In this document: positions 1 through 11,452 of the stretch, one piece after another | Numbering within the stretch: position 1 is the stretch's first letter | Layout of the letters: each line of letters begins with the position of its first letter | The notes under the pieces: generated by a model | The model's database searches: none | What the model was told of the DNA's origin: nothing | Seen by the model: only the letters and a program-made list of their open reading frames with translations | Translations under genes and position numbers: made by a program | From: a virus | Taxonomy: Duplodnaviria; Heunggongvirae; Uroviricota; Caudoviricetes | Reading direction: 5' to 3' (one strand) | Length of the DNA: 11,452 bases | Virus record (IMG/VR): IMGVR_UViG_3300015187_000032

Positions 1-1107
1 TCCTGCCGTCAACAGCCAGCAGGCAAAAGTATGCCGCGTATGGTACGGATTATGGCGGCGAATACCAGCACGTTTTACTGCTGCATTCCACCTTGCCCCC
101 AAACTGCTTACCGAGTAATAAGGTTTTTGTTTTCCGTTACACACCCTGGGCATGAAAACAAAATGCAGTTTTTGCTTTTCGGTTCTGCCGTACTCCCGAT
201 GATAAAAGGTGATTTCGCTTTTGCGATGATGCCCGGTCAGTTTGTATTGCTCCTTCAGTGCTTCAAGAGCAGGCTGCAGTAGTGTTACTGTCCGGATCCC
301 GGCATTTGTTTTTGGGGGACCGAACATATCAAGTATCGTCAGGTTTCTTCTGACATTCACTATTCCCTTTTCGAGATCCACATCCTCCCACGCCAGAGCT
401 GCCAGTTCCCCGTGACGAAGTCCTGAGTAAACGGCAAATTTCCACAAGTTCTGGCTCTGTCCTTTTTCACTTTCCATTAATGCATTGAATTCTGTTTTAG
501 ATAACGGATCAGGCTTTATTCTGTTTCGCTGTAATTTTTTTACTCCTTCAAATGGTTTGGTTAATATAAATCCCGACTGATACGCAAAACGCAACAGCGA
601 ACAGAGCAGGGCGATATAGTTATCAACAGTGCGCACGGTTCTTCCTTTTTTGTTGGATCTTGGATTATCCAGGTAAAGCGTTTCTCCATGCAGCAGTTCA
701 TTCCGGTAGTTTAAGATATCGCTATAACGAATATGTGATATCAGGGTACTTTCACAAATTATTATTCTGAGTGTTTTTAATTGTGATTTCGTTTTCTTCA
801 TTGTGTTTGTTGTTAACTCTGTCTCTTTAATTTTTGTCCAGATATCACAAAGCTCCCCGAACGTTTTTATGACTCTCGTTGTCACCATTTTTGCCCCAGT
901 GCTGGACTGGGGAAAACGTCTTAAATACTCAAATTCACCGGAGTTTATTTCATGAACTATCAGTGCTCTTAAATTTCCGGCCTTTTTAATATTACTGTTT
1001 GTAATCTCCCAGCCTTTTAATGTTTCCCGACATCGTTTTCCTCGAAACATGAACCAGATGCGAATGTATCTACCTCTAATCTCGACACCTGTTGGTAATT
1101 TAGACAT
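1..1107 (-). CDS. intR: Prophage tyrosine integrase, 5' part only (N-terminal 369 codons; C-terminus with catalytic Tyr lies beyond position 1)
   Basis: Minus-strand frame is open from the window edge to ATG at rc 1105-1107. N-terminus reads MSKLPTGVEIRGRYIRIWF (hand-translated). The codons nearest the window edge give ...NPYHTRHTFACWLLTAG, the His-X-X-Arg box of tyrosine recombinases. Not in the ORF track because it is edge-truncated. Upstream xis stop overlaps the start (rc 1105-1111 = TGATATG). Confidence 0.85.
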   Translation of the reverse strand, partial: MSKLPTGVEIRGRYIRIWFMFRGKRCRETLKGWEITNSNIKKAGNLRALIVHEINSGEFEYLRRFPQSSTGAKMVTTRVIKTFGELCDIWTKIKETELTTNTMKKTKSQLKTLRIIICESTLISHIRYSDILNYRNELLHGETLYLDNPRSNKKGRTVRTVDNYIALLCSLLRFAYQSGFILTKPFEGVKKLQRNRIKPDPLSKTEFNALMESEKGQSQNLWKFAVYSGLRHGELAALAWEDVDLEKGIVNVRRNLTILDMFGPPKTNAGIRTVTLLQPALEALKEQYKLTGHHRKSEITFYHREYGRTEKQKLHFVFMPRVCNGKQKPYYSVSSLGARWNAAVKRAGIRRHNPYHTRHTFACWLLTAG

Positions 1108-1108
1108 A

Positions 1109-1324
1109 TCATGAGTCTTTGATAAACTGATTTATCTTTGGATAGTTGTACCAGATAATCCCTCGTTTGCTGTCTGGCTTACCTAAAGGAGATACTCGTT
1201 TGAAGTGGAAGCCCTCCACCCAACAGTTCTGGCGGTATGCTTCAATTTGTCTGGCCCCCAGACCAGTGCGAAGCATCAGGCCGTATTCAACCATCCACTC
1301 TTCATTAAAGATTACTTGTGCCAT
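1109..1324 (-). CDS. xisR: Excisionase-like small protein (71 aa) directly upstream of int
   Basis: Track ORF 1109..1348 uses a TTG start. Internal ATG at rc 1322-1324 is preceded by GAGGTG with 5-nt spacing, giving [15 protein letters not shown]... (71 aa). Position immediately upstream of int with 1-nt gap fits an xis-int cassette. Also known as ydaQ. Confidence 0.7.
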
Positions 1325-1423
1325 CGCATCACCTCTGGCAGGCGCCAATGTTAGACTGAAATTGACGCCCGATGTTGATTATTAATAATCAGCTATGAAG
1401 TTTTAATTTGAATACAATGCAAT

Positions 1424-1612
1424 TCACGAGGACTGAAGTTTCTCGCAATTAAAATTAATCAGTTTTACTTTCTGCTCTCTGGAAACGCCTGCTTCTTTTT
1501 TACCTGAGAGCATTTTTTCACATTCTGATTTCGTTAGTTTAGATTTTGAATATCTTGTCCAGTTAGTAGGAGTGCCACCTTCCTTTTCAATAGTGGCGGT
1601 AATTTTATACAT
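1424..1612 (-). CDS. ydaC: Small prophage protein of unknown function (YdaC-like, 62 aa from this start)
   Basis: Track ORF 1424..1684. ATG at rc 1610-1612 is preceded by GGAGGTG at 6-nt spacing (rc of 1613-1630), giving MYKITATIEKEGG.... The longer 86-aa start would overlap lar by about 80 nt and lacks an SD. Start choice is inference. Confidence 0.6.
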   Translation of the reverse strand: MYKITATIEKEGGTPTNWTRYSKSKLTKSECEKMLSGKKEAGVSREQKVKLINFNCEKLQSS

Positions 1613-1799
1613 GAACACCTCCATTATTATTTCCAGTGGTTCGTTTATTCCATCTTTCGAGTGCTTCTTTTTCACTTCCACCATAACCGGTTCGGGATTC
1701 GCATCCGTTACACTTCGCTCGGTAATATGCTGAAATGGCTTTCACCGTTACTGATGGACAACCACAAAATGGACATGGTTTAACATTGTCATATCTCAT
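1605..1799 (-). CDS. ralR: Lar/RalR: restriction-alleviation protein, reported as the DNase toxin of a type I toxin-antitoxin pair; zinc-ribbon-like CxxC...CxxC
   Basis: Track ORF 1605..1811 (MRNVMRYDNVKPCPFCGCPS...AKCNGCES...). Two CxxC pairs (CPFC, CNGC) form a zinc-ribbon-like motif. I chose the second ATG (rc 1797-1799) to give 64 aa, matching my recollection of the K-12 protein; ATG at 1809-1811 is an alternative. Neither has a strong SD. Confidence 0.7.
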   Translation of the reverse strand: MRYDNVKPCPFCGCPSVTVKAISAYYRAKCNGCESRTGYGGSEKEALERWNKRTTGNNNGGVHV

Positions 1800-1854
1800 A
1801 ACATTTCTCATAAAAATATTTCAAGTTCGCGGTGCATTACACCGCCAGGCTGAA

Positions 1855-2664
1855 TTATTCCTCTGAATTATCGATTACACTGTATTCCCCGGTTAATACA
1901 GAGGAATCTGCAGGATCGATTGTCAGTGGTTCCTTTTCATCCATTGATACTGCACGCTGGATCTCAATTGATACGGGCAGATATTTGAACAGGCGACGAA
2001 TAGCCGTTTTCTTTGCCATTTCTTCCCAGTGAGTTACCCACGGCCCGTTATTACTAGCTTTACTCTGGCTGCGCACCAGCTCAATCTGTTTGCGCGTCAT
2101 AACTTCAAACTGAGTACCTCCGTCTTTCAGTCTTGCGACAGCATAGACGTGGGTAACCGGGGCATCTTCGTTTTCTCCTGGGCGGTGTATTAACTTTTCA
2201 TCAAGGCCAAATTCGAAATTAAACTCGTCACCTTCACGGACAACACGGGCTGACAGGCTGGCGATTTGACCTGAACGGCGAGCCAGATCAATCATGCCGC
2301 GATAGCCAATGATTAGCTGAACGTTTTTTTTACCGCTCTTTTCGTTTTTATTACCAAAAGGCAGTAAATATGCATGACCGAGAGCGCTACCGGGCTCAAG
2401 CCCGAGCTGTGAACACTGTACGATTGCACTGACAAAACTCATAGTGTCACAGTTTCCTAACGCCGGAACTTTACGAATTTCTGTGGTGGCGATACGGATC
2501 ATACGTTCAGCCGTCATATGGCGTGGAAGAGCTGCTGCCAGTTGCTCTTTCATTGATGGCTGGTTAATAAAACTAATCACGTCGTTATTTTTAATTGCTG
2601 CTGGTGCACGGTTTCCCTGAGTTTTTTGCAGATCGGCTTTTGCGATTGGTGGTTGCTTAGTCAT
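1855..2664 (-). CDS. recT: RecT single-strand annealing protein (269 aa)
   Basis: Track ORF 1855..2721 with start trimmed to [13 protein letters not shown]... (ATG rc 2662-2664). AAGGA lies upstream at rc 2672-2676. The start overlaps the recE stop (ATGACTAA). Sequence recognised as Rac RecT. Confidence 0.9.
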
Positions 2665-5257
2665 TTGCATATTCCTTAGCCCAGCGGGGCAGTGATAACG
2701 TCTTAATAGCTGGCCATTCATCGGTATTGAGGCAGTCAGCCAGGGTTCGCAGATTGCGGTGATATTCCAGCTGACCTGCCAGTTTTGCTTCTTCGCCCAT
2801 CATGAAAATTTCAACCGGATAACGTCCGCATTCAATAGTTGTGCTGGCAACCAGAAAAACGAAAGTTGGCTGCACTCCAAACTGTGCTTCATAACCGTCA
2901 CTGTAGAATGCATCCTGAACGTGATAGCGGTAGTCGTAATAAGCGGTTTTGAATCGTTGAATATCCGCCGTAGTTTTCACGTCCATGATCCAGTGAAATT
3001 CAGGGATAATTTTGTCCGGACGGCACCGACACAAAATTCCTGTTTCAGGATCTTCCCAGTAAATTGATGATTCAGCGTGTCCGGCGCTTTCAATAAGCCA
3101 TTGCCCCAGCGGCAAAGCCATAACGCTTTGATACATGAGTTCAATTTTCCGGCCTTCTTCCGCAGTGATAACCGTTTTTCCTGTGCTTGCGCATTCCATC
3201 AGAAACGCTTTCTCTTCTTCTTTTCCGGCGTTTGTACGGCGATTAAATTCAGGTGCTACGATAAAGCGGTTACTGAATTCTTCCGGTTCAAGTACCCGGC
3301 AGTGGAAAGCGGTTCCTAAATCGAGCGTTTTTGTCTTTGTGGTGTCCACGGGGGCATTTTTACGCCACAAATACAGTGCCGGAGTATCAGCAATGTCATC
3401 GAGCTGAGACTTACTGACACCGGGACCCGCGTGGTAATTCTCATTCGAAATTCCGTAATAAATACCTGGCTCTATGTCTTCTACGATTACGGGATCTGCG
3501 ACTTCGCCAGTTTCATCACTGCAATCGCGATGCGGATCGCTGCCAGCATTCTCATTGTGCGGATGTTCAGCGCCTTCCATTTCCTCCGGATCATTTTCCT
3601 TAGCTTCAACCTGACTCTCTTCATCGAATGTTTCCTGGTATGTTGCCTCGCCCATCACCGCACCACAGTCAGGGCAGTTATCCCCGCCAGTCTGGCCGCA
3701 GGCATTGCAGGCTATTTCCGGTTCCTGTTGCACTACTGGCTCAGGTTGATTCATATCCGGGCTGGTTTTTTCCGTTTCTGGCTGGTTCTGGTGCACAGAA
3801 TCGCGAGTCTGGATCCCCTTTACCCATTTCGGATCGTTCGGGTCGCTAATTCCGTCAACAAATTCACCACGTGATGCAGCAAGCAATTTATCGGCATCGA
3901 CAGGATTTTTTGATGGAATGTTTTTCCGGGCTTCATGGAGTTCTGCCCGCAGTTTCTGATATTTCGCATCAACAGAATTTACCTGTGACTGAGCATCCAA
4001 CGGCTGCGTGTCCTGATGATGTTCAGTTGCGTCCGGTTCCATTGTTTCAGCCTCTCCCTGTTCAACTGCCGTTGTTCCAGATGGTTGCGGTTTTTCTTCA
4101 TCATCCTGTTTTCCTTCTTCTGTTACTCGCTGCGGCATCGGGGCAGAGGAGCGACCGCAGGCAATATCCACGATTTCCGGATCAGGGTTTGCATGATCGG
4201 TTTCAGTCAGTACTTTGTTCAGATATTCAGTGACGTGCGCGGGGATGACCTCGATCCCAATTGGTGCTTCTTTTACGGACGCAACCACGATGGCGCGGGA
4301 ATAATCCAGCCCGCCAGGCATGGTGATGAATTTGTCGCGGAAAACAGAAAAGGGCGGTTTATTTTCAGCGATAATTTCCTCAATGCGTTTAGCGTGTGCC
4401 GGATGAAGGTTATAGATGTCTAGATCCATTGAACGGGCCAGTACGCCAGTGGCTACGTCGCGCGCCAGTGACGTCAGATCGTGTACGAAACCTTCGCCGC
4501 GATCGGTGAGGTTTCCGCCGCCAGCATTAGCACCGGAAGCCGTGCGAGTGATGTGTGAAACACGATTACCCTTCATCCACTCTTTTGTCAGCAGTCCTCG
4601 ATCGGTGTAGTCAGCGTTCAGGTATGCTTCGAAAAAAGCAGTTATCAGTCCCAGGTTTGAATTACCAGGATTAGGGAAAACTTTGTCAGTGTCACGAACC
4701 AGTTTGTGGAGATCGCGAATTTCCAGCGGGTCGAGCAGGCTGGTTTTGTGGGAAACAGCCAGGGCAGTAACAGCCGGTAGTTCTTCAGCCCGAGCAATGT
4801 GTAATGCCTGGAGTCCGTCGCGTGAAACGTGCGTTACCGGTTTTTCGCTGCCGTGTTGAGCAAGCCAGCGAATGGGCAGTTCCTGGCCAGAAATTGGGAG
4901 TAGCATATTCTCCTCAATCTCAGTCATGTCTTCGCCGTTGACGTTGGTATTGCCTTGATAGTGAGCGTTGTCTGGTGCTGCTCCCGGTTTTAGTTCCCAT
5001 GTCATGGAGTCTTTGCTGAGTTGATAGCGTTCACTCCAGGTAAAATCGATCTCACCTTCAGCGGGCAGGTCATTAACGACAGGAAAATTCGTGGCAACAG
5101 CTTTAAAATAGCTGCTCAGTTTTTTACCTGACTTAACGATCAGGTAGTCCAGAGTGGCACAGGTCGATTCAAAATCGTCGCTTGCCCACAGGACGACGTC
5201 AGGTTCACCGGATGATTTTTTCGCTTTCCGTAACAGGAAGAGTGGTTTTGTGCTCAT
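2657..5257 (-). CDS. recE: RecE exonuclease VIII (866 aa), 5'-3' dsDNA exonuclease partner of RecT
   Basis: Single 866-aa ORF on the minus strand. C-terminal part (...[32 protein letters not shown]...DVKTT...) is the nuclease domain. Middle is acidic and low-complexity, with a Cys4 motif (CNAC-x10-CPDC). Length and sequence fit Rac RecE. Confidence 0.9.
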
Positions 5258-5328
5258 TGTTTTTTAACCTCAACTCAGATTAAAATTCGTTTTGTTCAGT
5301 GAATGATCTTGCCGGATACACACTGTTC

Positions 5329-5353
5329 ATAGCCTGCGCCATACGCAGGCTAT
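5329..5353 (-). other. Perfect 10-bp stem / 5-nt loop hairpin 6 nt downstream of the racC stop, between racC and recE
   Basis: 5329-5338 ATAGCCTGCG pairs with 5344-5353 CGCAGGCTAT; loop is CCATA. On the minus-strand transcript it is not followed by a U-tract, so it is not a canonical intrinsic terminator. Confidence 0.3.
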
Positions 5354-5358
5354 TTCTT

Positions 5359-5634
5359 TCAGATTTCACCTTTTAATTTCATTGCAATTAGAGTTGCCAG
5401 AAATTCGGCTTTTTTTTCTGTGGGCAGATTCTTTCCGGTATGCACCAGGCACATTTTTTTGACACCTTCGTGAAGTGTTTTAACGTTGCCTGATGGACCG
5501 TCGATATCAACCACAGTGAATGGGGTTTCTTTATTTTCTGTTTTAATCACGTAGCCAATACGCTTTCCTTCCAGATTAACTTCGTGAACAATGTCATCAG
5601 TAGTTACAACAGTGGCTTCATAACTGGTAATCAT
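5359..5634 (-). CDS. racC: RacC small prophage protein (91 aa)
   Basis: Track ORF 5359..5682 trimmed to ATG at rc 5632-5634 (MITSYEATVVTTDD...), preceded by AAGGAG at 6-nt spacing (rc of 5635-5650). Confidence 0.75.
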   Translation of the reverse strand: MITSYEATVVTTDDIVHEVNLEGKRIGYVIKTENKETPFTVVDIDGPSGNVKTLHEGVKKMCLVHTGKNLPTEKKAEFLATLIAMKLKGEI

Positions 5635-5708
5635 GTTTTTCTCCTTAATTAAGGTTGAGCGAATCCCTGCCATTGCTGGCATAAATTCAGTTTCGCATAG
5701 TCAGTTAA

Positions 5709-5879
5709 TTAAAGTTCGTGTGCCATCTGGTCTTTTTCGGCACATATTTCACTACAATATTTTTTCATTTCCGTCGTTGGGATAACTCCACGCATGAAAT
5801 GAAGTGGTCTTTTAATGCTTTTGCTTTCTTTAACTTCTTTATCGCAAAGATGGTAAGCACATTTTATTTTCTTAGTCAT
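5709..5879 (-). CDS. ydaE: YdaE small Cys-rich (putative zinc-binding) protein, 56 aa; missing from the ORF track (<60 aa)
   Basis: Hand translation of the minus strand gives [56 protein letters not shown] with stop TAA (rc 5709-5711). Four Cys (C7, C12, C43, C47). The ATG overlaps the kilR stop (rc 5877-5881 = TGATG), suggesting translational coupling. Confidence 0.65.
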   Translation of the reverse strand: MTKKIKCAYHLCDKEVKESKSIKRPLHFMRGVIPTTEMKKYCSEICAEKDQMAHEL

Positions 5880-6100
5880 CACCATGACTCCGCCTTTACA
5901 GGTAAACCATCACGACCGAGGAAGACTTTAATCATGCAGTCAGTAATGCATGTTTTTGTGGTCAGGTTACGAATATAAAGTTTTCGCTTTTTAATATTGT
6001 TTGCCGAGGCAATATATGTCCGGCCGTTATGAAGAATATAATCACCAGGAGTCACACACTGACGAGGTATTTCATCAGTTCCGAAGTGATGAGCAATCAT
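5879..6100 (-). CDS. kilR: KilR: prophage Kil protein, cell-division (FtsZ) inhibitor (73 aa)
   Basis: Track ORF 5879..6118 (GTG start) trimmed to ATG at rc 6098-6100 ([14 protein letters not shown]...), with GGAG 6 nt upstream. Recognised as Rac KilR. Confidence 0.75.
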
Positions 6101-6261
6101 AATTATCTCCATTTTCACAAATGAACTTTGTTGATGCGGTGCCTGGTGCCTCCAGGTGACGTTAACCAGTTAACAATTAACGCCGGATAATCCACCCATA
6201 ACACTGATGCTTTTAACTGTTCCGCGTGCGCTTAGCCGCATTCACCGCATCACAAAATTCA

Positions 6262-6312
6262 CTTTAAAAAGGGCGGACATCAGCCGAACTTCAAGAAAAA
6301 AACTGATGCCGC
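6262..6312 (-). terminator. Candidate intrinsic terminator on the minus strand, upstream of kilR in the leftward transcription direction
   Basis: GC-rich stem 6271-6282 (GGCGGACATCAG) pairs with 6302-6312 (CTGATGCCGCC), 11 bp with one bulge and a 19-nt A-rich loop. On the minus strand it is followed directly by CTTTTTAAAG (rc of 6261-6270). Confidence 0.3.
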
Positions 6313-6531
6313 CAGGACTACACACAGCAATGTCGTTATTTACAACCGGAGGCGCACTCCCACCATTTAAATTTAACAGACAAGACCGACTCTTTATGGA
6401 TATCGGAAATGCGCCTTCGTGTTGTGCCCGGTTTTATTTCACCACCTCCGGGCTTCGGTGGTCTCGGCTATACCCCTACAGCGAGAGCTTGTGTTAACAT
6501 TTCAATACCCTTACAGTTGAGAGTTATTGAT

Positions 6532-7020
6532 ATGTTGGATGTATTTACTCCATTGTTGAAACTTTTTGCTAACGAGCCACTCGAAAGACTTATGTATACG
6601 ATTATCATTTTTGGTCTCACTCTCTGGCTGATACCGAAAGAGTTTACTGTCGCATTCAATGCTTATACTGAAATACCTTGGCTCTTTCAGATTATCGTTT
6701 TTGCCTTTTCTTTCGTGGTCGCCATTTCCTTCTCAAGATTGCGAGCACATATTCAAAAGCATTATTCATTACTACCAGAGCAACGAGTATTGCTTCGTTT
6801 ATCTGAGAAAGAAATCGCTGTATTTAAAGATTTCCTTAAAACAGGAAATCTTATTATCACTTCTCCTTGTCGTAACCCGGTTATGAAAAAATTAGAACGG
6901 AAGGGCATCATTCAACATCAGAGTGATAGCGCAAACTGTTCTTATTATCTCGTCACCGAAAAATACTCCCATTTTATGAAGTTATTCTGGAACAGCAGGA
7001 GTAGACGTTTTAATCGTTAG
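6532..7020 (+). CDS. sieB: SieB superinfection-exclusion protein (162 aa), membrane protein
   Basis: Track ORF 6409..7020 trimmed to ATG 6532 (MLDVFTPLLKLFANEPLERLMYTIIIFGLTLWLIPKEF...). Two hydrophobic segments are predicted. Encoded opposite to the surrounding leftward operon. The stop overlaps the ydaF stop on the other strand. Confidence 0.8.
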   Translation: MLDVFTPLLKLFANEPLERLMYTIIIFGLTLWLIPKEFTVAFNAYTEIPWLFQIIVFAFSFVVAISFSRLRAHIQKHYSLLPEQRVLLRLSEKEIAVFKDFLKTGNLIITSPCRNPVMKKLERKGIIQHQSDSANCSYYLVTEKYSHFMKLFWNSRSRRFNR

Positions 7021-7172
7021 CTTACTGTGTGCTTCTCCAACCATCGGCGCGCACCAGTTTCTGTTTTAAATGTTTTGCTTTTGGTATACGTCATAGCAGT
7101 GAACGTTCCATCTTGGTTGGGGAACACGCCGCACACAATGGATTCGTTATTGCCGAGGTCGATTTTTTGCAT
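7017..7172 (-). CDS. ydaF: YdaF small prophage protein (51 aa); missing from the ORF track
   Basis: Hand translation gives MQKIDLGNNESIVCGVFPNQDGTFTAMTYTKSKTFKTETGARRWLEKHTVS. ATG at rc 7170-7172 is preceded by GAGGTG, which contains the ydaG stop codon. Stop TAA at rc 7017-7019. Confidence 0.55.
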   Translation of the reverse strand: MQKIDLGNNESIVCGVFPNQDGTFTAMTYTKSKTFKTETGARRWLEKHTVS

Positions 7173-7182
7173 TTTTCGCACC

Positions 7183-7317
7183 TCACATCTTGTTGTTGCG
7201 GATAGAGGCTTCTGCCTGCCAGAGATCCCAGTCGTTGCTGCGTAAAGCCTGCACAGCCTGGTTGTAAGTGATGCCGCAACAATCCATCAAATACTGAACT
7301 ACTTCGTAATGCACCAT
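7183..7317 (-). CDS. ydaG: YdaG small prophage protein (44 aa); missing from the ORF track
   Basis: Hand translation gives MVHYEVVQYLMDCCGITYNQAVQALRSNDWDLWQAEASIRNNKM. ATG at rc 7315-7317 is preceded by GGGGAGA at about 6-nt spacing. First gene downstream of the leftward early promoter. Confidence 0.6.
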   Translation of the reverse strand: MVHYEVVQYLMDCCGITYNQAVQALRSNDWDLWQAEASIRNNKM

Positions 7318-7486
7318 CTTATCTCTCCCCTTAACGCCGGGTGGCGGAACTAACTGCTGCACTGCAAAATTTGAATCCCGCCGTCATGTTCATACGCCTC
7401 GGGCTGGCTACTTAACCCCTGACCACTGCCTGGTAACTCGAAGTATTGCCCGGCGTTCTGTGGGGCGGGGTGGGTGGTATGCTGGA

Positions 7487-7515
7487 ACTATAGGTAATGC
7501 CTAATTGATTGTCAA
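7487..7515 (-). promoter_or_regulatory. pL-like leftward early promoter: TTGACA -17 bp- TATAGT on the minus strand
   Basis: rc of 7510-7515 is TTGACA; rc of 7487-7492 is TATAGT; the spacer is exactly 17 bp. Oriented toward ydaG-ydaF-kilR-recET. Flanked and overlapped by the operator palindromes. Confidence 0.45.
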
Positions 7516-7528
7516 TAGGCTATGCCTA
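7491..7528. promoter_or_regulatory. Left operator cluster (OL-like): two 13-bp TAGGC-N3-GCCTA palindromes 25 bp apart
   Basis: 7491-7503 TAGGTAATGCCTA (imperfect) and 7516-7528 TAGGCTATGCCTA (perfect). The second abuts the -35; the first overlaps the -10. The same 13-mer family recurs three times on the other side of racR. Confidence 0.5.
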
Positions 7529-7589
7529 ATATTTTGAGCGTAACCTAATAGGTGATGGCGACAGCAGAAAGTGATGGGGGGGTTAAATA

Positions 7590-7611
7590 ACGGAATCCAG
7601 GAGTTTTCCGT
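7590..7611 (-). terminator. Weak candidate terminator hairpin downstream of racR
   Basis: ACGGAA (7590-7595) pairs with TTCCGT (7606-7611), loop 10 nt. On the minus strand it is followed by UUAUUUAA then a C7 run. Sits about 15 nt past the racR stop (TAA, rc 7626-7628). Confidence 0.2.
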
Positions 7612-7625
7612 CAGACCATATAAGT

Positions 7626-8102
7626 TTAAGTTCCAGTTTTTGTGATGTTCTGGCTTTTCCGTTCAGATTCTAGAGCTTTCAGATACTTACCCACTTTCAT
7701 TTCCATCGCTGCTATGTAGGCGCGAACATCGTGGTCAACCCAATCTGGTTCTGTAGCATTTCCAGATAACAGGAAAGCTACAATCGCTCTTATTTCATCA
7801 GAGGCTGCTTGATAAAGGTTGTTTATATCTAAAAGTTCACTTTTTGTATCTGAATTGGTGGGGGTTGGTATGGGGTATTCGTTAAGCCCCCAATGCTCTG
7901 GACCAACAACATCAGAAAAGAAACGCCATAATTCTGGAAGTTTATCTTTACTTATAGAGCCTTTCTTAATCCAGTCATAAATTGATGGTGGTTGGACTTT
8001 GAAGTGGCGTGCGACCTCCGCCTTTGATTTGACGGATCCCGATGCGATTTTTTTGTTAATGGCCTGCTCTATCGCTCGGCCTAAGTCTTTACCACTAAGC
8101 AT
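7626..8102 (-). CDS. racR: RacR prophage repressor (158 aa), HTH DNA-binding protein
   Basis: Track ORF 7626..8102. Divergent from ydaS across a 123-bp operator-rich intergenic region. Sequence recognised as Rac RacR. Confidence 0.85.
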   Translation of the reverse strand: MLSGKDLGRAIEQAINKKIASGSVKSKAEVARHFKVQPPSIYDWIKKGSISKDKLPELWRFFSDVVGPEHWGLNEYPIPTPTNSDTKSELLDINNLYQAASDEIRAIVAFLLSGNATEPDWVDHDVRAYIAAMEMKVGKYLKALESERKSQNITKTGT

Positions 8103-8131
8103 TGCTTAATATTCTCCTATGCGCATTGCAT

Positions 8132-8195
8132 TAGGCAATCCCTACCTTTATCGTATTAGGCATAGCCTATTGACATTTGCGTTAGGCGTCGCCTA
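8132..8195. promoter_or_regulatory. Right operator cluster (OR-like): three 13-bp TAGGC-N3-GCCTA palindromes at 25-26-bp centre spacing, between racR and ydaS
   Basis: 8132-8144 TAGGCAATCCCTA (imperfect), 8157-8169 TAGGCATAGCCTA (perfect), 8183-8195 TAGGCGTCGCCTA (perfect). The 21-bp block 8155-8175 is the exact reverse complement of 7510-7530. Confidence 0.5.
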
Positions 8196-8199
8196 ATAT
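8170..8199 (+). promoter_or_regulatory. pR-like rightward early promoter: TTGACA -18 bp- TAATAT
   Basis: TTGACA at 8170-8175; best -10 candidate TAATAT at 8194-8199, overlapping the third operator. Followed by GGAG (8214-8217) and the ydaS ATG at 8226. Confidence 0.4.
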
Positions 8200-8225
8200 T
8201 TCTGTGTGTTTTTGGAGTTCATTCG

Positions 8226-8522
8226 ATGAAAAAAGAGAACTATTCATTCAAGCAAGCTTGTGCTGTTGTCGGTGGGCAATCAGCAATGGCTAGGCTTTTA
8301 GGTGTATCACCTCCAAGCGTAAATCAATGGATCAAAGGGGTACGTCAATTGCCTGCCGAGAGATGTCCAGCAATTGAACGTGCAACAAGAGGTGAGGTTC
8401 TGTGCGAAGAACTTCGTCCAGATATTGACTGGTCATATTTACGACGTTCGGCATGTTGTTCGCAGAATATGTCAGTGAAGCAACTAAATGACAGTAACAA
8501 ATCCTCATTTGATCATACCTGA
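8226..8522 (+). CDS. ydaS: YdaS: Cro-like HTH early protein (98 aa), toxic when derepressed
   Basis: Track ORF 8226..8522, first gene of the rightward operon. ...SAMARLLGVSPPSVNQWIKG... is an HTH-like segment. Recognised as Rac YdaS. Confidence 0.85.
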   Translation: MKKENYSFKQACAVVGGQSAMARLLGVSPPSVNQWIKGVRQLPAERCPAIERATRGEVLCEELRPDIDWSYLRRSACCSQNMSVKQLNDSNKSSFDHT

Positions 8523-8544
8523 AACATCAAGAGGCAAATGATTC

Positions 8545-8967
8545 ATGAAAATCAAGCATGAGCACATCGAATCAGTGTTGTTTGCCCTGGCAGCCGAAAA
8601 AGGGCAGGCATGGGTAGCCAATGCAATTACTGAAGAATATCTGCGCCAGGGGGGCGGCGAATTGCCCCTAGTTCCAGGCAAGGACTGGAACAATCAGCAG
8701 AATATCTATCACCGTTGGTTGAAAGGTGAAACGAAAACGCAAAGAGAAAAAATTCAGAAGCTGATCCCAGCAATTCTGGCAATCCTTCCGCGCGAGCTGC
8801 GTCACCGACTCTGCATCTTCGATACCCTGGAACGCCGTGCATTACTGGCGGCGCAGGAAGCGTTAAGTACGGCAATTGATGCGCATGATGATGCAGTCCA
8901 GGCCGTTTACCGGAAAGCGCATTTCAGCGGCGGCGGGTCTTCCGACGATTCTGTCATTGTTCATTAA
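8545..8967 (+). CDS. ydaT: YdaT: CII-like / toxin-like early protein (140 aa)
   Basis: Track ORF 8545..8967; SD AAGAGG upstream of the ATG. Recognised as Rac YdaT. Confidence 0.85.
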   Translation: MKIKHEHIESVLFALAAEKGQAWVANAITEEYLRQGGGELPLVPGKDWNNQQNIYHRWLKGETKTQREKIQKLIPAILAILPRELRHRLCIFDTLERRALLAAQEALSTAIDAHDDAVQAVYRKAHFSGGGSSDDSVIVH

Positions 8968-8979
8968 GCAAAAGTTTCC

Positions 8980-9837
8980 ATGCTGTTTGTGCTTATTCTA
9001 AGCAACCGGGCAGCATCATACGGGGCAATTATGGCCGCATTACCATACATGCAACTGTACATAGCTGATTACCTGGCTGACACCATGCATTTGTCAGCAG
9101 AGGAGCATGGTGCGTATTTGTTGCTGATGTTCAATTACTGGCAAACAGGAAAGCCAATACCTAAAAACAGGCTGGCAAAAATTGCCCGTCTGACTAACGA
9201 GCGATGGGCTGGTGTTGAACCATCCTTGCGGGAGTTTTTTTGCGATAACGGCGAGGAATGGGTGCATCTTCGGATTGAGGAAGATCTGGCATCAGTCAGG
9301 GAAAAATTAACCAAAAAATCAGCCGCAGGAAAAGCATCTGTTCAGGCTAGAAGAAGCAGAAAGGAAGCAGATGTTCAAACAAAACAAGAGAGAAATTTAA
9401 CAGGTGTTCAAACAGATGTTGAAGTGGTGTTTGAACATGATGTCAACACAAAGGCAACTAATAAAGATACAGATAAAGATCTAAAAACAGATCCCCCCCT
9501 AAATCCCCCCCGGGGGAATCGAGGTGTCAAAAAGTTTGACCCTCTGGATATTGCTTTGCCGAACTGGATTTCTGTCTCGCTTTGGCGTGAGTGGGTTGAA
9601 TTTCGCCAGGCATTGCGTAAACCGATTCGAACGGAGCAGGGCGCTAACGGGGCGATACGGGAGCTGGAAAAATTCCGCCAGCAGGGTTTTTCACCTGAGC
9701 AGGTGATTCGACACAGCATCGCCAACGAATACAAGGGCTTGTTCGCGCCGAAAGGTGTTCGACCTGAGACGTTACTCCGACAGGTTAACACCGTTTCGTT
9801 ACCGGACAGTGCGATCCCGCCAGGCTTCAGGGGGTAA
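8980..9837 (+). CDS. ydaU: YdaU: replication-initiator-like protein (DUF1376-type; lambda O position)
   Basis: Track ORF 8980..9837 (285 aa). No SD before the ATG at 8980. An alternative start at 9031 (MAALPYMQLYIADYLADT...) follows a GGGG motif and may be the true start. Central linker region contains iteron-like repeats. Confidence 0.75.
   Translation: MLFVLILSNRAASYGAIMAALPYMQLYIADYLADTMHLSAEEHGAYLLLMFNYWQTGKPIPKNRLAKIARLTNERWAGVEPSLREFFCDNGEEWVHLRIEEDLASVREKLTKKSAAGKASVQARRSRKEADVQTKQERNLTGVQTDVEVVFEHDVNTKATNKDTDKDLKTDPPLNPPRGNRGVKKFDPLDIALPNWISVSLWREWVEFRQALRKPIRTEQGANGAIRELEKFRQQGFSPEQVIRHSIANEYKGLFAPKGVRPETLLRQVNTVSLPDSAIPPGFRG
9368..9520. repeat. Candidate replication-origin repeats inside ydaU: three 10-bp TGTTCAAACA copies followed by an A-rich tract and a C7/C7/G5 block
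   Basis: TGTTCAAACA at 9372-9381 and 9405-9414 (direct) and 9428-9437 (inverted). A-rich stretch 9451-9491. CCCCCCC at 9493-9499 and 9505-9511, then GGGGG at 9512-9516. Layout resembles the lambda ori inside the O gene. Confidence 0.3.
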
Positions 9838-9843
9838 CTGACC

Positions 9844-10590
9844 ATGAAAAATATTGCGACAGGCGGCGTTCTTGAACGTATCCGCAGACTGGCTCCGTCA
9901 CATGTAACCGCGCCATTCAAGACGGTGGCGGAGTGGCGTGAGTGGCAACTTTCCGAAGGCCAGAAACGTTGTGAGGAGATCAACCGTCAGAATCGTCAGT
10001 TGCGGGTGGAAAAAATTCTGAATCGCTCTGGCATCCAGCCATTGCACCGCAAATGCTCGTTTTCGAATTACCAGGTGCAGAACGACGGTCAGCGATACGC
10101 GTTGAGCCAGGCGAAATTCATCGCCGATGAACTGATGGTCGGGTGTACAAATTTTGCGTTCAGTGGAAAACCTGGTACCGGAAAAAACCATCTGGCGGCG
10201 GCTATCGGGAATCGCCTGCTGAAAGACGGTCAGACAGTGATTGTGGTTACCGTGGCTGATGTTATGAGCGCCCTGCACGCCAGCTATGACGACGGGCAGT
10301 CAGGCGAAAAATTTTTGCGGGAACTGTGCGAAGTTGATCTGCTGGTTCTTGATGAAATTGGTATTCAGCGCGAGACGAAAAACGAGCAGGTGGTACTGCA
10401 CCAGATTGTTGATCGCCGGACAGCGTCGATGCGCGGCGTGGGAATGCTGACAAACCTGAACTATGAGGCCATGAAAACATTGCTCGGCGCGCGGATTATG
10501 GATCGCATGACCATGAACGGCGGACGCTGGGTGAATTTTAACTGGGAGAGCTGGCGTCCGAATGTCGTCCAGCCAGGAATTGCGAAGTAA
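9844..10590 (+). CDS. ydaV: YdaV: DnaC-like AAA+ helicase loader (248 aa)
   Basis: Track ORF 9844..10590. Walker [16 protein letters not shown] and Walker [10 protein letters not shown] are present. IstB/DnaC-like protein at the lambda P position. Confidence 0.85.
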
Positions 10591-10612
10591 TTTTTACCGG
10601 GAGAAAAATTTA

Positions 10613-11380
10613 ATGGAGACTGTTTTTGACGCACTGAAAGCAATGGGAATAGCCACATCCATAGAACTTGCTGCGCGACTTGATATCAGTCGTGAAGAAG
10701 TGCTGAACGAACTATGGGAACTGAAAAAGGCTGGTTTTGTTGATAAAAGCGCGTACACCTGGCGTGTGGCTGATAACAACGTTCAGCAGGAACAGCCAGC
10801 GCAGGCAGAACTGCCGGAAGAAACCACCACAGCAACAGTAGCGAAAATCTCAGAGTGCGATTTAACCGCGACGATTGAACAACGCGGACCACAAACGGCT
10901 GATGAGCTGGCTACATTGTTTGGTACCACATCACGCAAAGTGGCTTCAACGCTGGCAATGGCAATCAGCAAAGGTCGTCTGATTCGCGTAAATCAGGGCG
11001 GTAAATTTCGTTACTGCATACCGGGCGATAATTTACCAGCAGAGCCGAAAGCAGCATCGGTAGCGGAAACTGATGGTAAGGCCTTTCCTCAGACCGCAGG
11101 TGTCGCGTTACCAGTACAGGAGGCTGCAACACAGGAAGAAATTAAAACAGATACTATGGGGGACATTGTGCAGTCACTACCATCGTTCACTGAAACGCGA
11201 GCCAATGACCTGATTTTACCATCGCTGCATATGGCAAACCGCGAACTGCGCCGGGCGAAAAGTCATGTCCAGAAGTGGGAGCGAGTCTGCGCCGCGCTGC
11301 GTGAGCTGAACAAGCACCAGGATATTGTTCGACAGATTACGGATTCTTTTCCGAGGCAACACGGCGGAAAGAATCCGTAA
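10613..11380 (+). CDS. ydaW: YdaW-like protein with two tandem winged-helix-like segments (255 aa from this start)
   Basis: Track ORF 10562..11380 trimmed to ATG 10613 ([12 protein letters not shown]...), with GGGAGA 8 nt upstream. The longer start overlaps ydaV by 29 nt. Two similar HTH-like segments: [31 protein letters not shown] and [31 protein letters not shown]. The 3' end lies inside a large palindrome. Symbol assigned by position in the Rac map. Confidence 0.6.
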
Positions 11381-11416
11381 TCTGTCGAACAATAACCTGT
11401 AGCTTGTTCAGCTCAC
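11301..11416. repeat. Large imperfect palindrome (about 55-bp arms) spanning the ydaW stop codon
   Basis: Inner 13-bp perfect stem 11337-11349 / 11368-11380, plus 3 more bp after a 1-nt bulge, loop about 11 nt. Outer arms 11301-11336 and 11381-11416 match 33/36 as reverse complements. The minus strand reads a near-identical C-terminal peptide ending at TAA (rc 11337-11339). Confidence 0.6.
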
Positions 11417-11452
11417 GCCCCGAGTCTGCACCACGCTGCGCTCGCTGGACAA

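What the first reader, a model, noticed from the sequence alone, without database searches (positions are those of the whole stretch)
11301..11452. Imperfect ~116-bp palindrome at the 3' end of ydaW, with a mirror-image partial ORF on the opposite strand
The last ~80 nt of ydaW and the following ~70 nt form a near-continuous inverted repeat centred near 11358. As a result the minus strand encodes ...[27 protein letters not shown], closely matching the plus-strand C-terminus ...[27 protein letters not shown]. The two reading frames overlap by 44 nt inside the central hairpin. Similarity fades but persists to the window edge ([11 protein letters not shown] versus VQRAQRGADSG). This could be an inverted-duplication scar at the point where the prophage lost its late region, a pair of convergent paralogues sharing a bidirectional terminator, or a recombination hotspot. 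Long palindromes are substrates for SbcCD, so persistence is itself notable.
Basis: seen in the sequence. Interest (0 to 1): 0.6.

Follow-up and report, generated by a model that had tools for sequence, protein, structure and literature searches.

The report
Fold-back chimera at the sequence end
The palindrome is really in the sequence, but it consists of the last 104 bases of the window folding back, noisily, over the end of an ordinary prophage gene; no related genome has this junction, so it is most likely a sequencing or assembly artefact rather than biology.

Summary
The inverted repeat exists: arms 11266-11349 and 11368-11451, 77% complementary, 18-nt spacer, RNA fold z = -14.3. It is not a feature of Rac-like prophages.

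Window 1-11348 differs at only 2 bases from E. coli HYM1 and from other assemblies. In all of them the DUF1627 ("ydaW") gene runs 23 nt further (...YRRVASEK*) and a DUF977 gene starts 15 nt later, with no hairpin (z = +2.05).

The window's last 104 nt have three parts:
- The gene's own last ~20 nt, inverted in place. This forms the "loop".
- The reverse complement of 11299-11348.
- A second flip at ~11419 into a direct copy of 11280-11313.

Mismatch rises from 0% to 7% to 24%, all by substitution. The strand switch shares only CTT/AAG.

The junction is absent from 5,426 complete E. coli genomes and from the GTDB, IMG/VR and JGI collections. The right arm matches no other allele better than the resident one.

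The K-12 Rac breakpoint lies about 290 nt upstream (11062), and no terminator is present.

Best reading: a technical fold-back or template-switch chimera carried into a low-quality sequence end. A private in vivo snap-back duplication is not excluded, but the 1000-fold excess divergence of the copied arm argues against it.

The parts
10613..11348 (+). Authentic part of the DUF1627 (ydaW-like) gene. An alternative upstream ATG lies at 10562.
   Evidence: Pfam PF07789, E = 2.4e-95. Identical to HYM1, L006 and L009 up to 11348.
11265..11348 (+). Left arm: genuine gene sequence, the source of the copied material.
11346..11348 (.). Strand-switch junction. CTT is shared between the end of the forward copy and the start of the reverse-complemented copy (AAG is the last sense codon of the gene).
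   Evidence: BLAST pieces overlap at 11346-11348. See also the alignments.
11349..11368 (-). The 'loop': the gene's true last ~20 nt (…CCGCCGTGTTGCATCGGAA…), present only in reverse complement. This information is absent from the window's plus strand.
   Evidence: There are 2 substitutions (11355, 11368).
11369..11418 (-). Right arm: reverse complement of 11299-11348, 47/50 identical, no indels.
11419..11452 (+). Terminal 34 nt after a second flip: a noisy direct copy of 11280-11313 (26/34). It runs to the last base of the window.
   Evidence: family D1. (best of 38 kb on both strands; shuffles reach at most 23). (10 direct-specific matches against 1 mirror-specific match).
11349..11380 (+). 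Junction-created C-terminus (F)PRQHGGKNP* that replaces the authentic YRRVASEK*.
11337..11452 (-). Mirror-image partial ORF. It is a by-product of copying coding sequence in inverted orientation, and it carries the authentic RRVASEK end followed by NP*.

Best explanation
The last 104 nt of the window do not belong to the prophage. They are a fold-back (inverted-duplication) chimera.

How the sequence runs:
- It follows the plus strand of a normal Rac-like DUF1627 gene up to 11348.
- It then jumps, at a 3-nt CTT/AAG overlap, to the complementary strand 23 nt further downstream, at the gene's last sense codon.
- It runs backward over the same gene for about 70 nt.
- At a natural GC-rich quasi-palindrome it flips once more and copies about 34 nt forward.

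Inferred origin: snap-back or template-switch synthesis on a broken DNA fragment during library preparation or amplification, or a fold-back read. The product was then carried into the end of an assembled sequence, where coverage and base quality are low. That would account for substitution noise rising from 0% to 7% to 24% toward the end.

Consequences: the palindrome, the altered C-terminus and the mirror ORF are all by-products of this chimera. In the real genome the gene ends ...YRRVASEK* and is followed by a DUF977 gene.

Shown here: the anatomy, the uniqueness of the junction and the normal state of all relatives. Inferred: the technical origin and its exact route.
For: - Window 1-11348 differs from HYM1 at only 2 bases, and every relative diverges from the window exactly at 11348/11349.
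- HYM1, L006 (GCA_030801885.1) and L009 (an ENA metagenome scaffold) continue identically with ACCGCCGTGTTGCATCGGAAAAGTGA followed by DUF977.
- The reverse complement of the tail aligns without gaps to HYM1 11265-11371. This includes 20-23 nt that the window's plus strand lacks, so the tail was copied from real DNA and not from the window's own text.
- The right arm's best match in 5,426 complete genomes is the resident allele (93.2%; the next best is 89%). No 28-mer of the tail exists in any of those genomes.
- The junction is absent from genome contigs, viral contigs and metagenome contigs, even with N at the two noisy sites. The chimeric protein is not on record.
- Arm divergence is about 0.2 per site against a background of 2/11,348. 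The differences are substitutions only and increase toward the last base.
- The feature runs to the last base of the window.
- Fold-back or inverted chimeras are documented library and read artefacts (PMC10908179; PMC12870357).
- The natural sequence has no hairpin (z = +2.05) and no terminator-like site.
Against: - A simple fold-back artefact should give identical arms. The 7-24% noise and the second flip need additional assumptions.
- Substitution-only noise is not typical of long-read fold-back reads.
- All 5 proximal mismatches equal the true forward base at the same coordinate (about p = 0.004, tested post hoc). This hints at signal or consensus mixing that I cannot reconstruct.
- I have no reads, coverage or assembly graph, and I cannot prove that 11452 is a contig end.
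- The window's source was not found in any collection.
Confidence: 0.78

Rival explanations
1. A real, private in vivo snap-back event in the source strain. A break near the end of the DUF1627 gene left a 3' end that folded back on a short quasi-palindrome (CTT.CCG ... CGG.AAG) and primed synthesis. This would start an inverted duplication (TID-type or palindromic), possibly made by error-prone repair synthesis.
For: The anatomy is what snap-back models predict: a strand switch with a short single-copy spacer and microhomology. The review PMC7999016 cites work showing that inverted repeats of 5-9 bp with 3-12 bp spacers can drive palindromic duplications. PMC3315005 reports inverted chromosome duplications centred on a palindrome in E. 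coli. Draft genomes were not searched, so a private event cannot be excluded.
Against: A fresh duplication should have identical arms. Here the copied arm differs at about 20% of sites, while 11,348 nt of flank differ at 2 sites from HYM1. The zig-zag second flip and the end-of-window position also argue against it. The junction is absent from 5,426 complete genomes and three large collections. The event would also delete or displace the DUF977 gene and the downstream genes that all close relatives keep.
Confidence: 0.1
2. The tail was produced or altered after sequencing, for example by consensus mixing of two read populations, faulty polishing, or deliberate or accidental in-silico editing of a real sequence.
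For: All 5 proximal mismatches to the mirror equal the genuine forward base at that coordinate. The noise is substitutions only and stays in register over 107 nt. The source is untraceable.
Against: The loop is the in-place reverse complement of genuine sequence that is not in the window. A physical strand switch explains this simply; mirroring the window's own text does not explain it. In the distal 34 nt only 2 of 8 mismatches equal the forward base, and 5 positions match none of the three candidate templates.
Confidence: 0.08
3. A natural arrangement: a second, divergent DUF1627-like gene (or its remnant) converging on the first. The shared palindrome would act as a bidirectional terminator or recombination site.
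For: The minus strand is open to the window edge and encodes a DUF1627-like C-terminus, including the authentic RRVASEK.
Against: The right arm is closest to the resident allele, not to any other allele. Its variants are absent from the other alleles examined. Past 11418 the copy flips to direct orientation, so the minus-strand 'gene' does not continue as DUF1627. There is no U-tract or terminator-like site. None of more than 2,700 E. coli records with this gene shows the arrangement. Four of the 5 proximal substitutions are non-synonymous.
Confidence: 0.03

Closest known systems
Fold-back / inverted chimeric reads from library preparation or long-read sequencing (the PDSM model, PMC10908179; fold-back artefacts, PMC12870357)
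   Same: One part of the sequence is the original strand and the next part is its inverted complement from nearly the same place. The join sits at a short natural inverted repeat or microhomology. The anomaly appears at the end of a sequence.
   Different: The published artefacts give near-perfect arms. Here the copy carries 7-24% substitutions and a second flip. No reads are available to show low support.
In vivo snap-back inverted duplications (palindromic or tandem-inversion duplications; the E. coli palindrome-centred inverted duplication of PMC3315005; the short-inverted-repeat snap-back reviewed in PMC7999016)
   Same: Same junction geometry: a strand switch, a short single-copy spacer and short microhomology.
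   Different: These should be sequence-perfect when young and should duplicate kilobases. Here the arm is strongly diverged on a 99.98%-identical background, and nothing beyond 104 nt can be seen.
Rho-independent (bidirectional) terminator
   Same: A stable stem-loop placed after a stop codon.
   Different: There is no U/T tract on either strand, the stem is made of coding sequence, the hairpin is absent from all homologous prophages, and the next gene normally starts 15 nt after the stop.
K-12 Rac ydaW truncation (loss of the late region)
   Same: The same gene family in the same prophage module.
   Different: K-12 homology ends at window 11062, about 290 nt upstream. K-12 ydaW is 186 aa and is followed by rzpR. 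There is no palindrome there.

Membership tests
Fold-back (inverted-duplication) junction | The sequence switches to the complementary strand of the same locus at a nearby position. | tested here: met
   The forward copy ends at 11348. The reverse copy starts at the HYM1 equivalent of 11371.
Fold-back (inverted-duplication) junction | A single-copy spacer taken from the reference sequence between the two breakpoints. | tested here: met
   11349-11368 is the reverse complement of the genuine last ~20 nt of the gene, 18/20 identical.
Fold-back (inverted-duplication) junction | Microhomology at the switch point. | tested here: met
   A 3-nt CTT/AAG overlap. This is short and could be chance.
Fold-back (inverted-duplication) junction | Arms identical to their source when recent. 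| tested here: not met
   68/73 proximally, then 26/34 after a second flip.
Technical artefact (chimeric read at a contig end) | Low, non-independent read support, and a majority of reads supporting the normal junction. | not testable with these tools
   No reads, coverage or assembly graph are available. The source was not found.
Technical artefact (chimeric read at a contig end) | Absent from independent assemblies of the same or near-identical sequence. | tested here: met
   HYM1, T-HYM1, L006 and L009 (at least 99.9% identical) all have the normal continuation. The junction is absent from all collections.
Rho-independent terminator | A GC-rich stem-loop followed by a T/U tract. | tested here: not met
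   No terminator-like site was found in 10900-11452 on either strand. The only Rfam matches are sub-threshold matches to miRNA hairpin families.
Rho-independent terminator | Conserved at the homologous position in related prophages. | tested here: not met
   The natural sequence folds no better than shuffles (z = +2.05). DUF977 starts 15 nt after the stop.
Convergent paralogous DUF1627 genes | The second arm belongs to an independent allele or full gene in inverted orientation. | tested here: not met
   The best match is the resident allele. The copy flips back to direct orientation at about 11419. The full gene cannot be tested because the window ends.
K-12 Rac deletion scar | The breakpoint coincides with the K-12 ydaW/rzpR junction. 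| tested here: not met
   K-12 homology ends at 11062. K-12 ydaW is 561 nt.
SbcCD-sensitive long palindrome | Long, (near-)perfect arms with little or no spacer. The experimental substrates are a 246-bp interrupted palindrome and a 460-bp perfect palindrome. | tested here: not met
   The perfect core is 27 bp, the spacer is 18 nt, and the arms are 77% complementary over 84 nt. The substrate sizes come from PMC4245961 and, for the 246-bp construct, from my own knowledge of PMC3315005. The general rule is from PMC7999016. Actual in vivo sensitivity was not tested.
DUF1627 (PF07789) protein | A Pfam match above the gathering score. | tested here: met
   317 bits against a cut-off of 28.1, E = 2.4e-95, residues 88-242. 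Only the last 8 residues are replaced by junction sequence.

The most novel reading that the evidence does not exclude
The junction is real. A HYM1-like E. coli strain would have suffered a break at the end of the DUF1627 gene of its Rac-like prophage. The 3' end snapped back on a 3-7 nt quasi-palindrome and primed highly error-prone synthesis with a second template switch. That would capture the first ~100 nt of a palindromic or tandem-inversion duplication, together with the mutational signature of the repair polymerase.
Probability: 0.06. Interest if true: 0.45.

Novelty: not a real feature. Interest (0 to 1): 0.07.

Why it matters
The main value is as a caution. Taken at face value, the window would yield three false conclusions:
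- a false DUF1627 C-terminus (…[10 protein letters not shown]);
- a false antisense ORF;
- a false 'palindrome/terminator/recombination hotspot' in a well-studied prophage.

The case shows a quick test for such findings. Check whether the anomaly starts exactly where near-identical genomes stop matching. Then check whether the 'loop' is the reverse complement of the sequence that ought to follow.

If the junction were real, it would be a rare natural snapshot of snap-back inverted duplication in E. coli. The evidence here does not favour that.

Tried and rejected
- **Source search.** Two exact-pattern scans each of genome contigs, metagenome contigs and viral contigs found nothing. Look-ups of the chimeric protein with both possible starts also found nothing. 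The look-up with the lineage-specific 91-aa T72 protein returned only assemblies with the normal junction. Two blocks of 10-20 kb contigs were not read by that tool.
- **Right arm from a second paralogue or another allele: rejected.** The resident allele is the best match. The arm's variants are not in E. coli 1303, AR_0077, L007 or L008.
- **Simple noisy mirror to the window edge: rejected.** The last 34 nt fit a second flip much better.
- **Pure two-component mixture of mirror and true forward sequence.** It fits the proximal 73 nt (5 of 5 mismatches) but not the distal 34 nt.
- **Tail generated by mirroring the window's own text: rejected.** The loop carries genuine sequence that is absent from the window.
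- **Terminator and known RNA families: nothing found**.
- **K-12 deletion scar: rejected**.

Full report
**Context**

The window is the early (left) half of a Rac-like lambdoid prophage of E. coli. It holds part of intR, then xisR, ralR, recT, recE, kilR, sieB, racR, ydaS, ydaT, ydaU and ydaV, and a DUF1627 gene at 10613-11380. The finding concerns the last ~190 nt.

- The repeat finder reports arms 11266-11349 and 11368-11451, 84 nt long, 77% complementary, 18 nt apart.
- The core is a perfect 27-bp stem.
- The RNA fold of 11266-11452 is -116.1 kcal/mol. Shuffles average -57.0 +/- 4.1 (z = -14.3, 0 of 200 as good).

**What related sequences show**

- A megablast of the whole window against 5,426 complete E. 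coli genomes gives a match over 1-11348, and every top hit stops at 11348.
- A base-by-base comparison with E. coli HYM1 finds only two differences in 11,348 nt, at positions 53 and 5421.
- A look-up with the lineage-specific 91-aa protein that contains the 5421 variant brought in more assemblies. L006 (GCA_030801885.1) differs from the window at 2 bases. L009 (an ENA metagenome scaffold) differs at 1 base plus one gap. Both stop matching at 11348.
- After 11348, HYM1, L006 and L009 read identically: ACCGCCGTGTTGCATCGGAAAAGTGA. This ends the protein as ...DSYRRVASEK*, and a DUF977 gene starts 15 nt later. More distant alleles have the same organisation.
- The natural sequence at this place has no unusual structure (z = +2.05). 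HYM1's prophage continues into intact lysis, terminase, head and tail genes.

**Anatomy of the last 104 nt**

- No 28-mer of 11345-11452 occurs in any complete E. coli genome.
- With a sensitive search, the reverse complement of 11346-11418 matches the 3' end of DUF1627 genes. The best match is HYM1's own allele at 93.2%; the next best is 89%.
- A gapless alignment places the reverse complement of 11346-11452 on HYM1 positions 11265-11371 with 85/107 matches.
- That stretch includes the gene's real last 20-23 nt (CCGCCGTGTTGC.TCGGAAAAG). The window's plus strand does not contain them. In the window they form the 'loop'.
- So the minus strand carries the authentic RRVASEK end, and the plus-strand end [10 protein letters not shown] is a junction product.
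- The forward and reverse pieces overlap by CTT (11346-11348).
- This geometry is forward to x1, then back on the other strand from x2 = x1 + 23. That is a fold-back junction. It shows the tail was copied from real DNA and not generated by mirroring the window's own text.

**The second flip**

- Beyond 11418 the mirror alignment collapses.
- The last 34 nt are best explained, over 38 kb on both strands, as a direct copy of 11280-11313. They match at 26/34, whereas shuffled 34-mers reach at most 23.
- There are 10 direct-specific matches and 1 mirror-specific match.
- The residual 'VQ' similarity at the window edge arises because the natural sequence 11265-11313 is itself quasi-palindromic (TGTCCAG...CTGAACA).
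- The tail is therefore a zig-zag of forward, reverse and forward pieces. Mismatch to the template is 0%, then 7% (5/73), then 24% (8/34). All differences are substitutions and there are no indels.

**Uniqueness**

- The junction 44-mer is absent from GTDB representative genomes, IMG/VR and JGI metagenome contigs. So is a 48-mer with N at the two noisy sites.
- The chimeric protein is not on record with either start.

**Interpretation**

- The flank differs from its relatives at 2 of 11,348 sites. The copied arm differs from the same allele at about 1 site in 5.
- A recent in vivo inverted duplication would have identical arms.
- An old one would be inherited and visible in other genomes, and it would not sit next to a 99.98%-identical flank.
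- An arm from another paralogue would match that paralogue better than the resident allele, and it does not.
- The remaining explanation is a technical chimera. Inverted or fold-back chimeric molecules and reads are well documented. They arise by pairing at short natural inverted repeats during fragmentation and end repair (PMC10908179). They also occur as fold-back reads in long-read data (PMC12870357).
- A chimera that ends up in the last bases of an assembled sequence, where support and quality are lowest, would explain three things: the position at the very end of the window, the substitution noise that grows toward the end, and the absence of the junction elsewhere.
- I put this at about 0.78.

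**What this explanation does not cover**

- Published artefacts have near-perfect arms.
- The second flip needs a second switch.
- All five proximal mismatches equal the genuine forward base at the same coordinate. The chance of that is about 0.004, but it was noticed post hoc. It suggests some mixing of the true and fold-back signals that I cannot reconstruct.
- I could not find the source or its reads, and I cannot prove that 11452 is a contig end.

- *Late-region deletion scar.* K-12 Rac homology stops at 11062, K-12 ydaW is 186 aa, and it is followed by rzpR. That breakpoint is about 290 nt away and unrelated.
- *Convergent paralogues with a bidirectional terminator.* There is no T-tract or terminator-like site. 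The only Rfam matches are sub-threshold matches to miRNA hairpin families. No homologous prophage has the hairpin. The 'second gene' does not continue as DUF1627.
- *Recombination hotspot.* There is no recurrence.
- *SbcCD.* The experimental substrates are much longer and more perfect: a 460-bp perfect palindrome (PMC4245961) and a 246-bp interrupted palindrome (PMC3315005; the size of the latter is from my own knowledge). Instability rises with arm length and identity and falls with spacer length (PMC7999016). Persistence of a 27-bp perfect core with an 18-nt spacer would not be remarkable even if it were real.

**Residual novel reading**

A genuine private snap-back event with error-prone synthesis is not excluded. 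I put it at about 0.06-0.10. Short inverted repeats of 5-9 bp can seed palindromic duplications (PMC7999016). Reads or a simple PCR on the source strain would decide.

**Verdict**

The palindrome is in the sequence, but it is most likely not a real feature of the genome. Interest is low.

Noticed in passing
window 53: T in the window but C in HYM1, L006 and L009, and probably in L010-L012 (each has a single mismatch in the overlap, which I did not locate). It would change IntR R352H. A private difference 53 nt from the left edge may be another low-quality end base, or a true SNP.
   Followed up: partly
window 5421 (91-aa ORF 5359-5634, minus strand): A non-synonymous variant (A72T relative to HYM1) in a hypothetical protein next to recE. 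It is shared with at least 24 contigs in public assemblies. It places the window in a lineage slightly different from HYM1.
   Followed up: partly
window 11062; L002 (K-12 MG1655) 3702: K-12 Rac homology to this prophage ends at 11062, inside the DUF1627 gene. That is the real K-12 ydaW truncation point (186 aa, then rzpR/rzoR/trkG), about 290 nt upstream of the palindrome.
   Followed up: yes
L001 4132-6290 (HYM1, about 650 nt beyond where the window ends): Directly downstream of DUF977, the HYM1-type prophage carries an AAA ATPase and a DUF4435 protein on the opposite strand. They match PADLOC AriA (E = 1.2e-39) and AriB (E = 1.8e-12), so this is a PARIS-like defence pair in the prophage. 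L006 and L009 have the same pair; L007 and L008 carry different cargo at this position.
   Followed up: partly
window 11265-11313: The genuine gene contains a GC-rich quasi-palindrome (TGTCCAG-N33-CTGAACA, centre 11289). The mirror and direct templates agree at 16 of 34 positions. This is where the tail makes its second flip.
   Followed up: partly
window 11355, 11368, 11395, 11400, 11401: All five substitutions in the proximal inverted copy equal the base that the genuine forward sequence (HYM1) has at that same coordinate. The chance is about 0.004, tested post hoc. Unexplained; possibly signal or consensus mixing.
   Followed up: partly
L001 3450-4100 (HYM1 sequence downstream of window 11348): The segment after the DUF1627 end is at least 99% identical only in HYM1 and T-HYM1 among complete genomes (the next best is about 91%). 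The segment before it is 98% identical in many genomes. A natural mosaic boundary therefore lies close to the DUF1627/DUF977 junction.
   Followed up: no
L005 23210-24667 (HYM1): In the full-length HYM1 prophage, trkG sits between the lysis genes and the terminase genes. K-12's trkG context is therefore a remnant of this arrangement.
   Followed up: no
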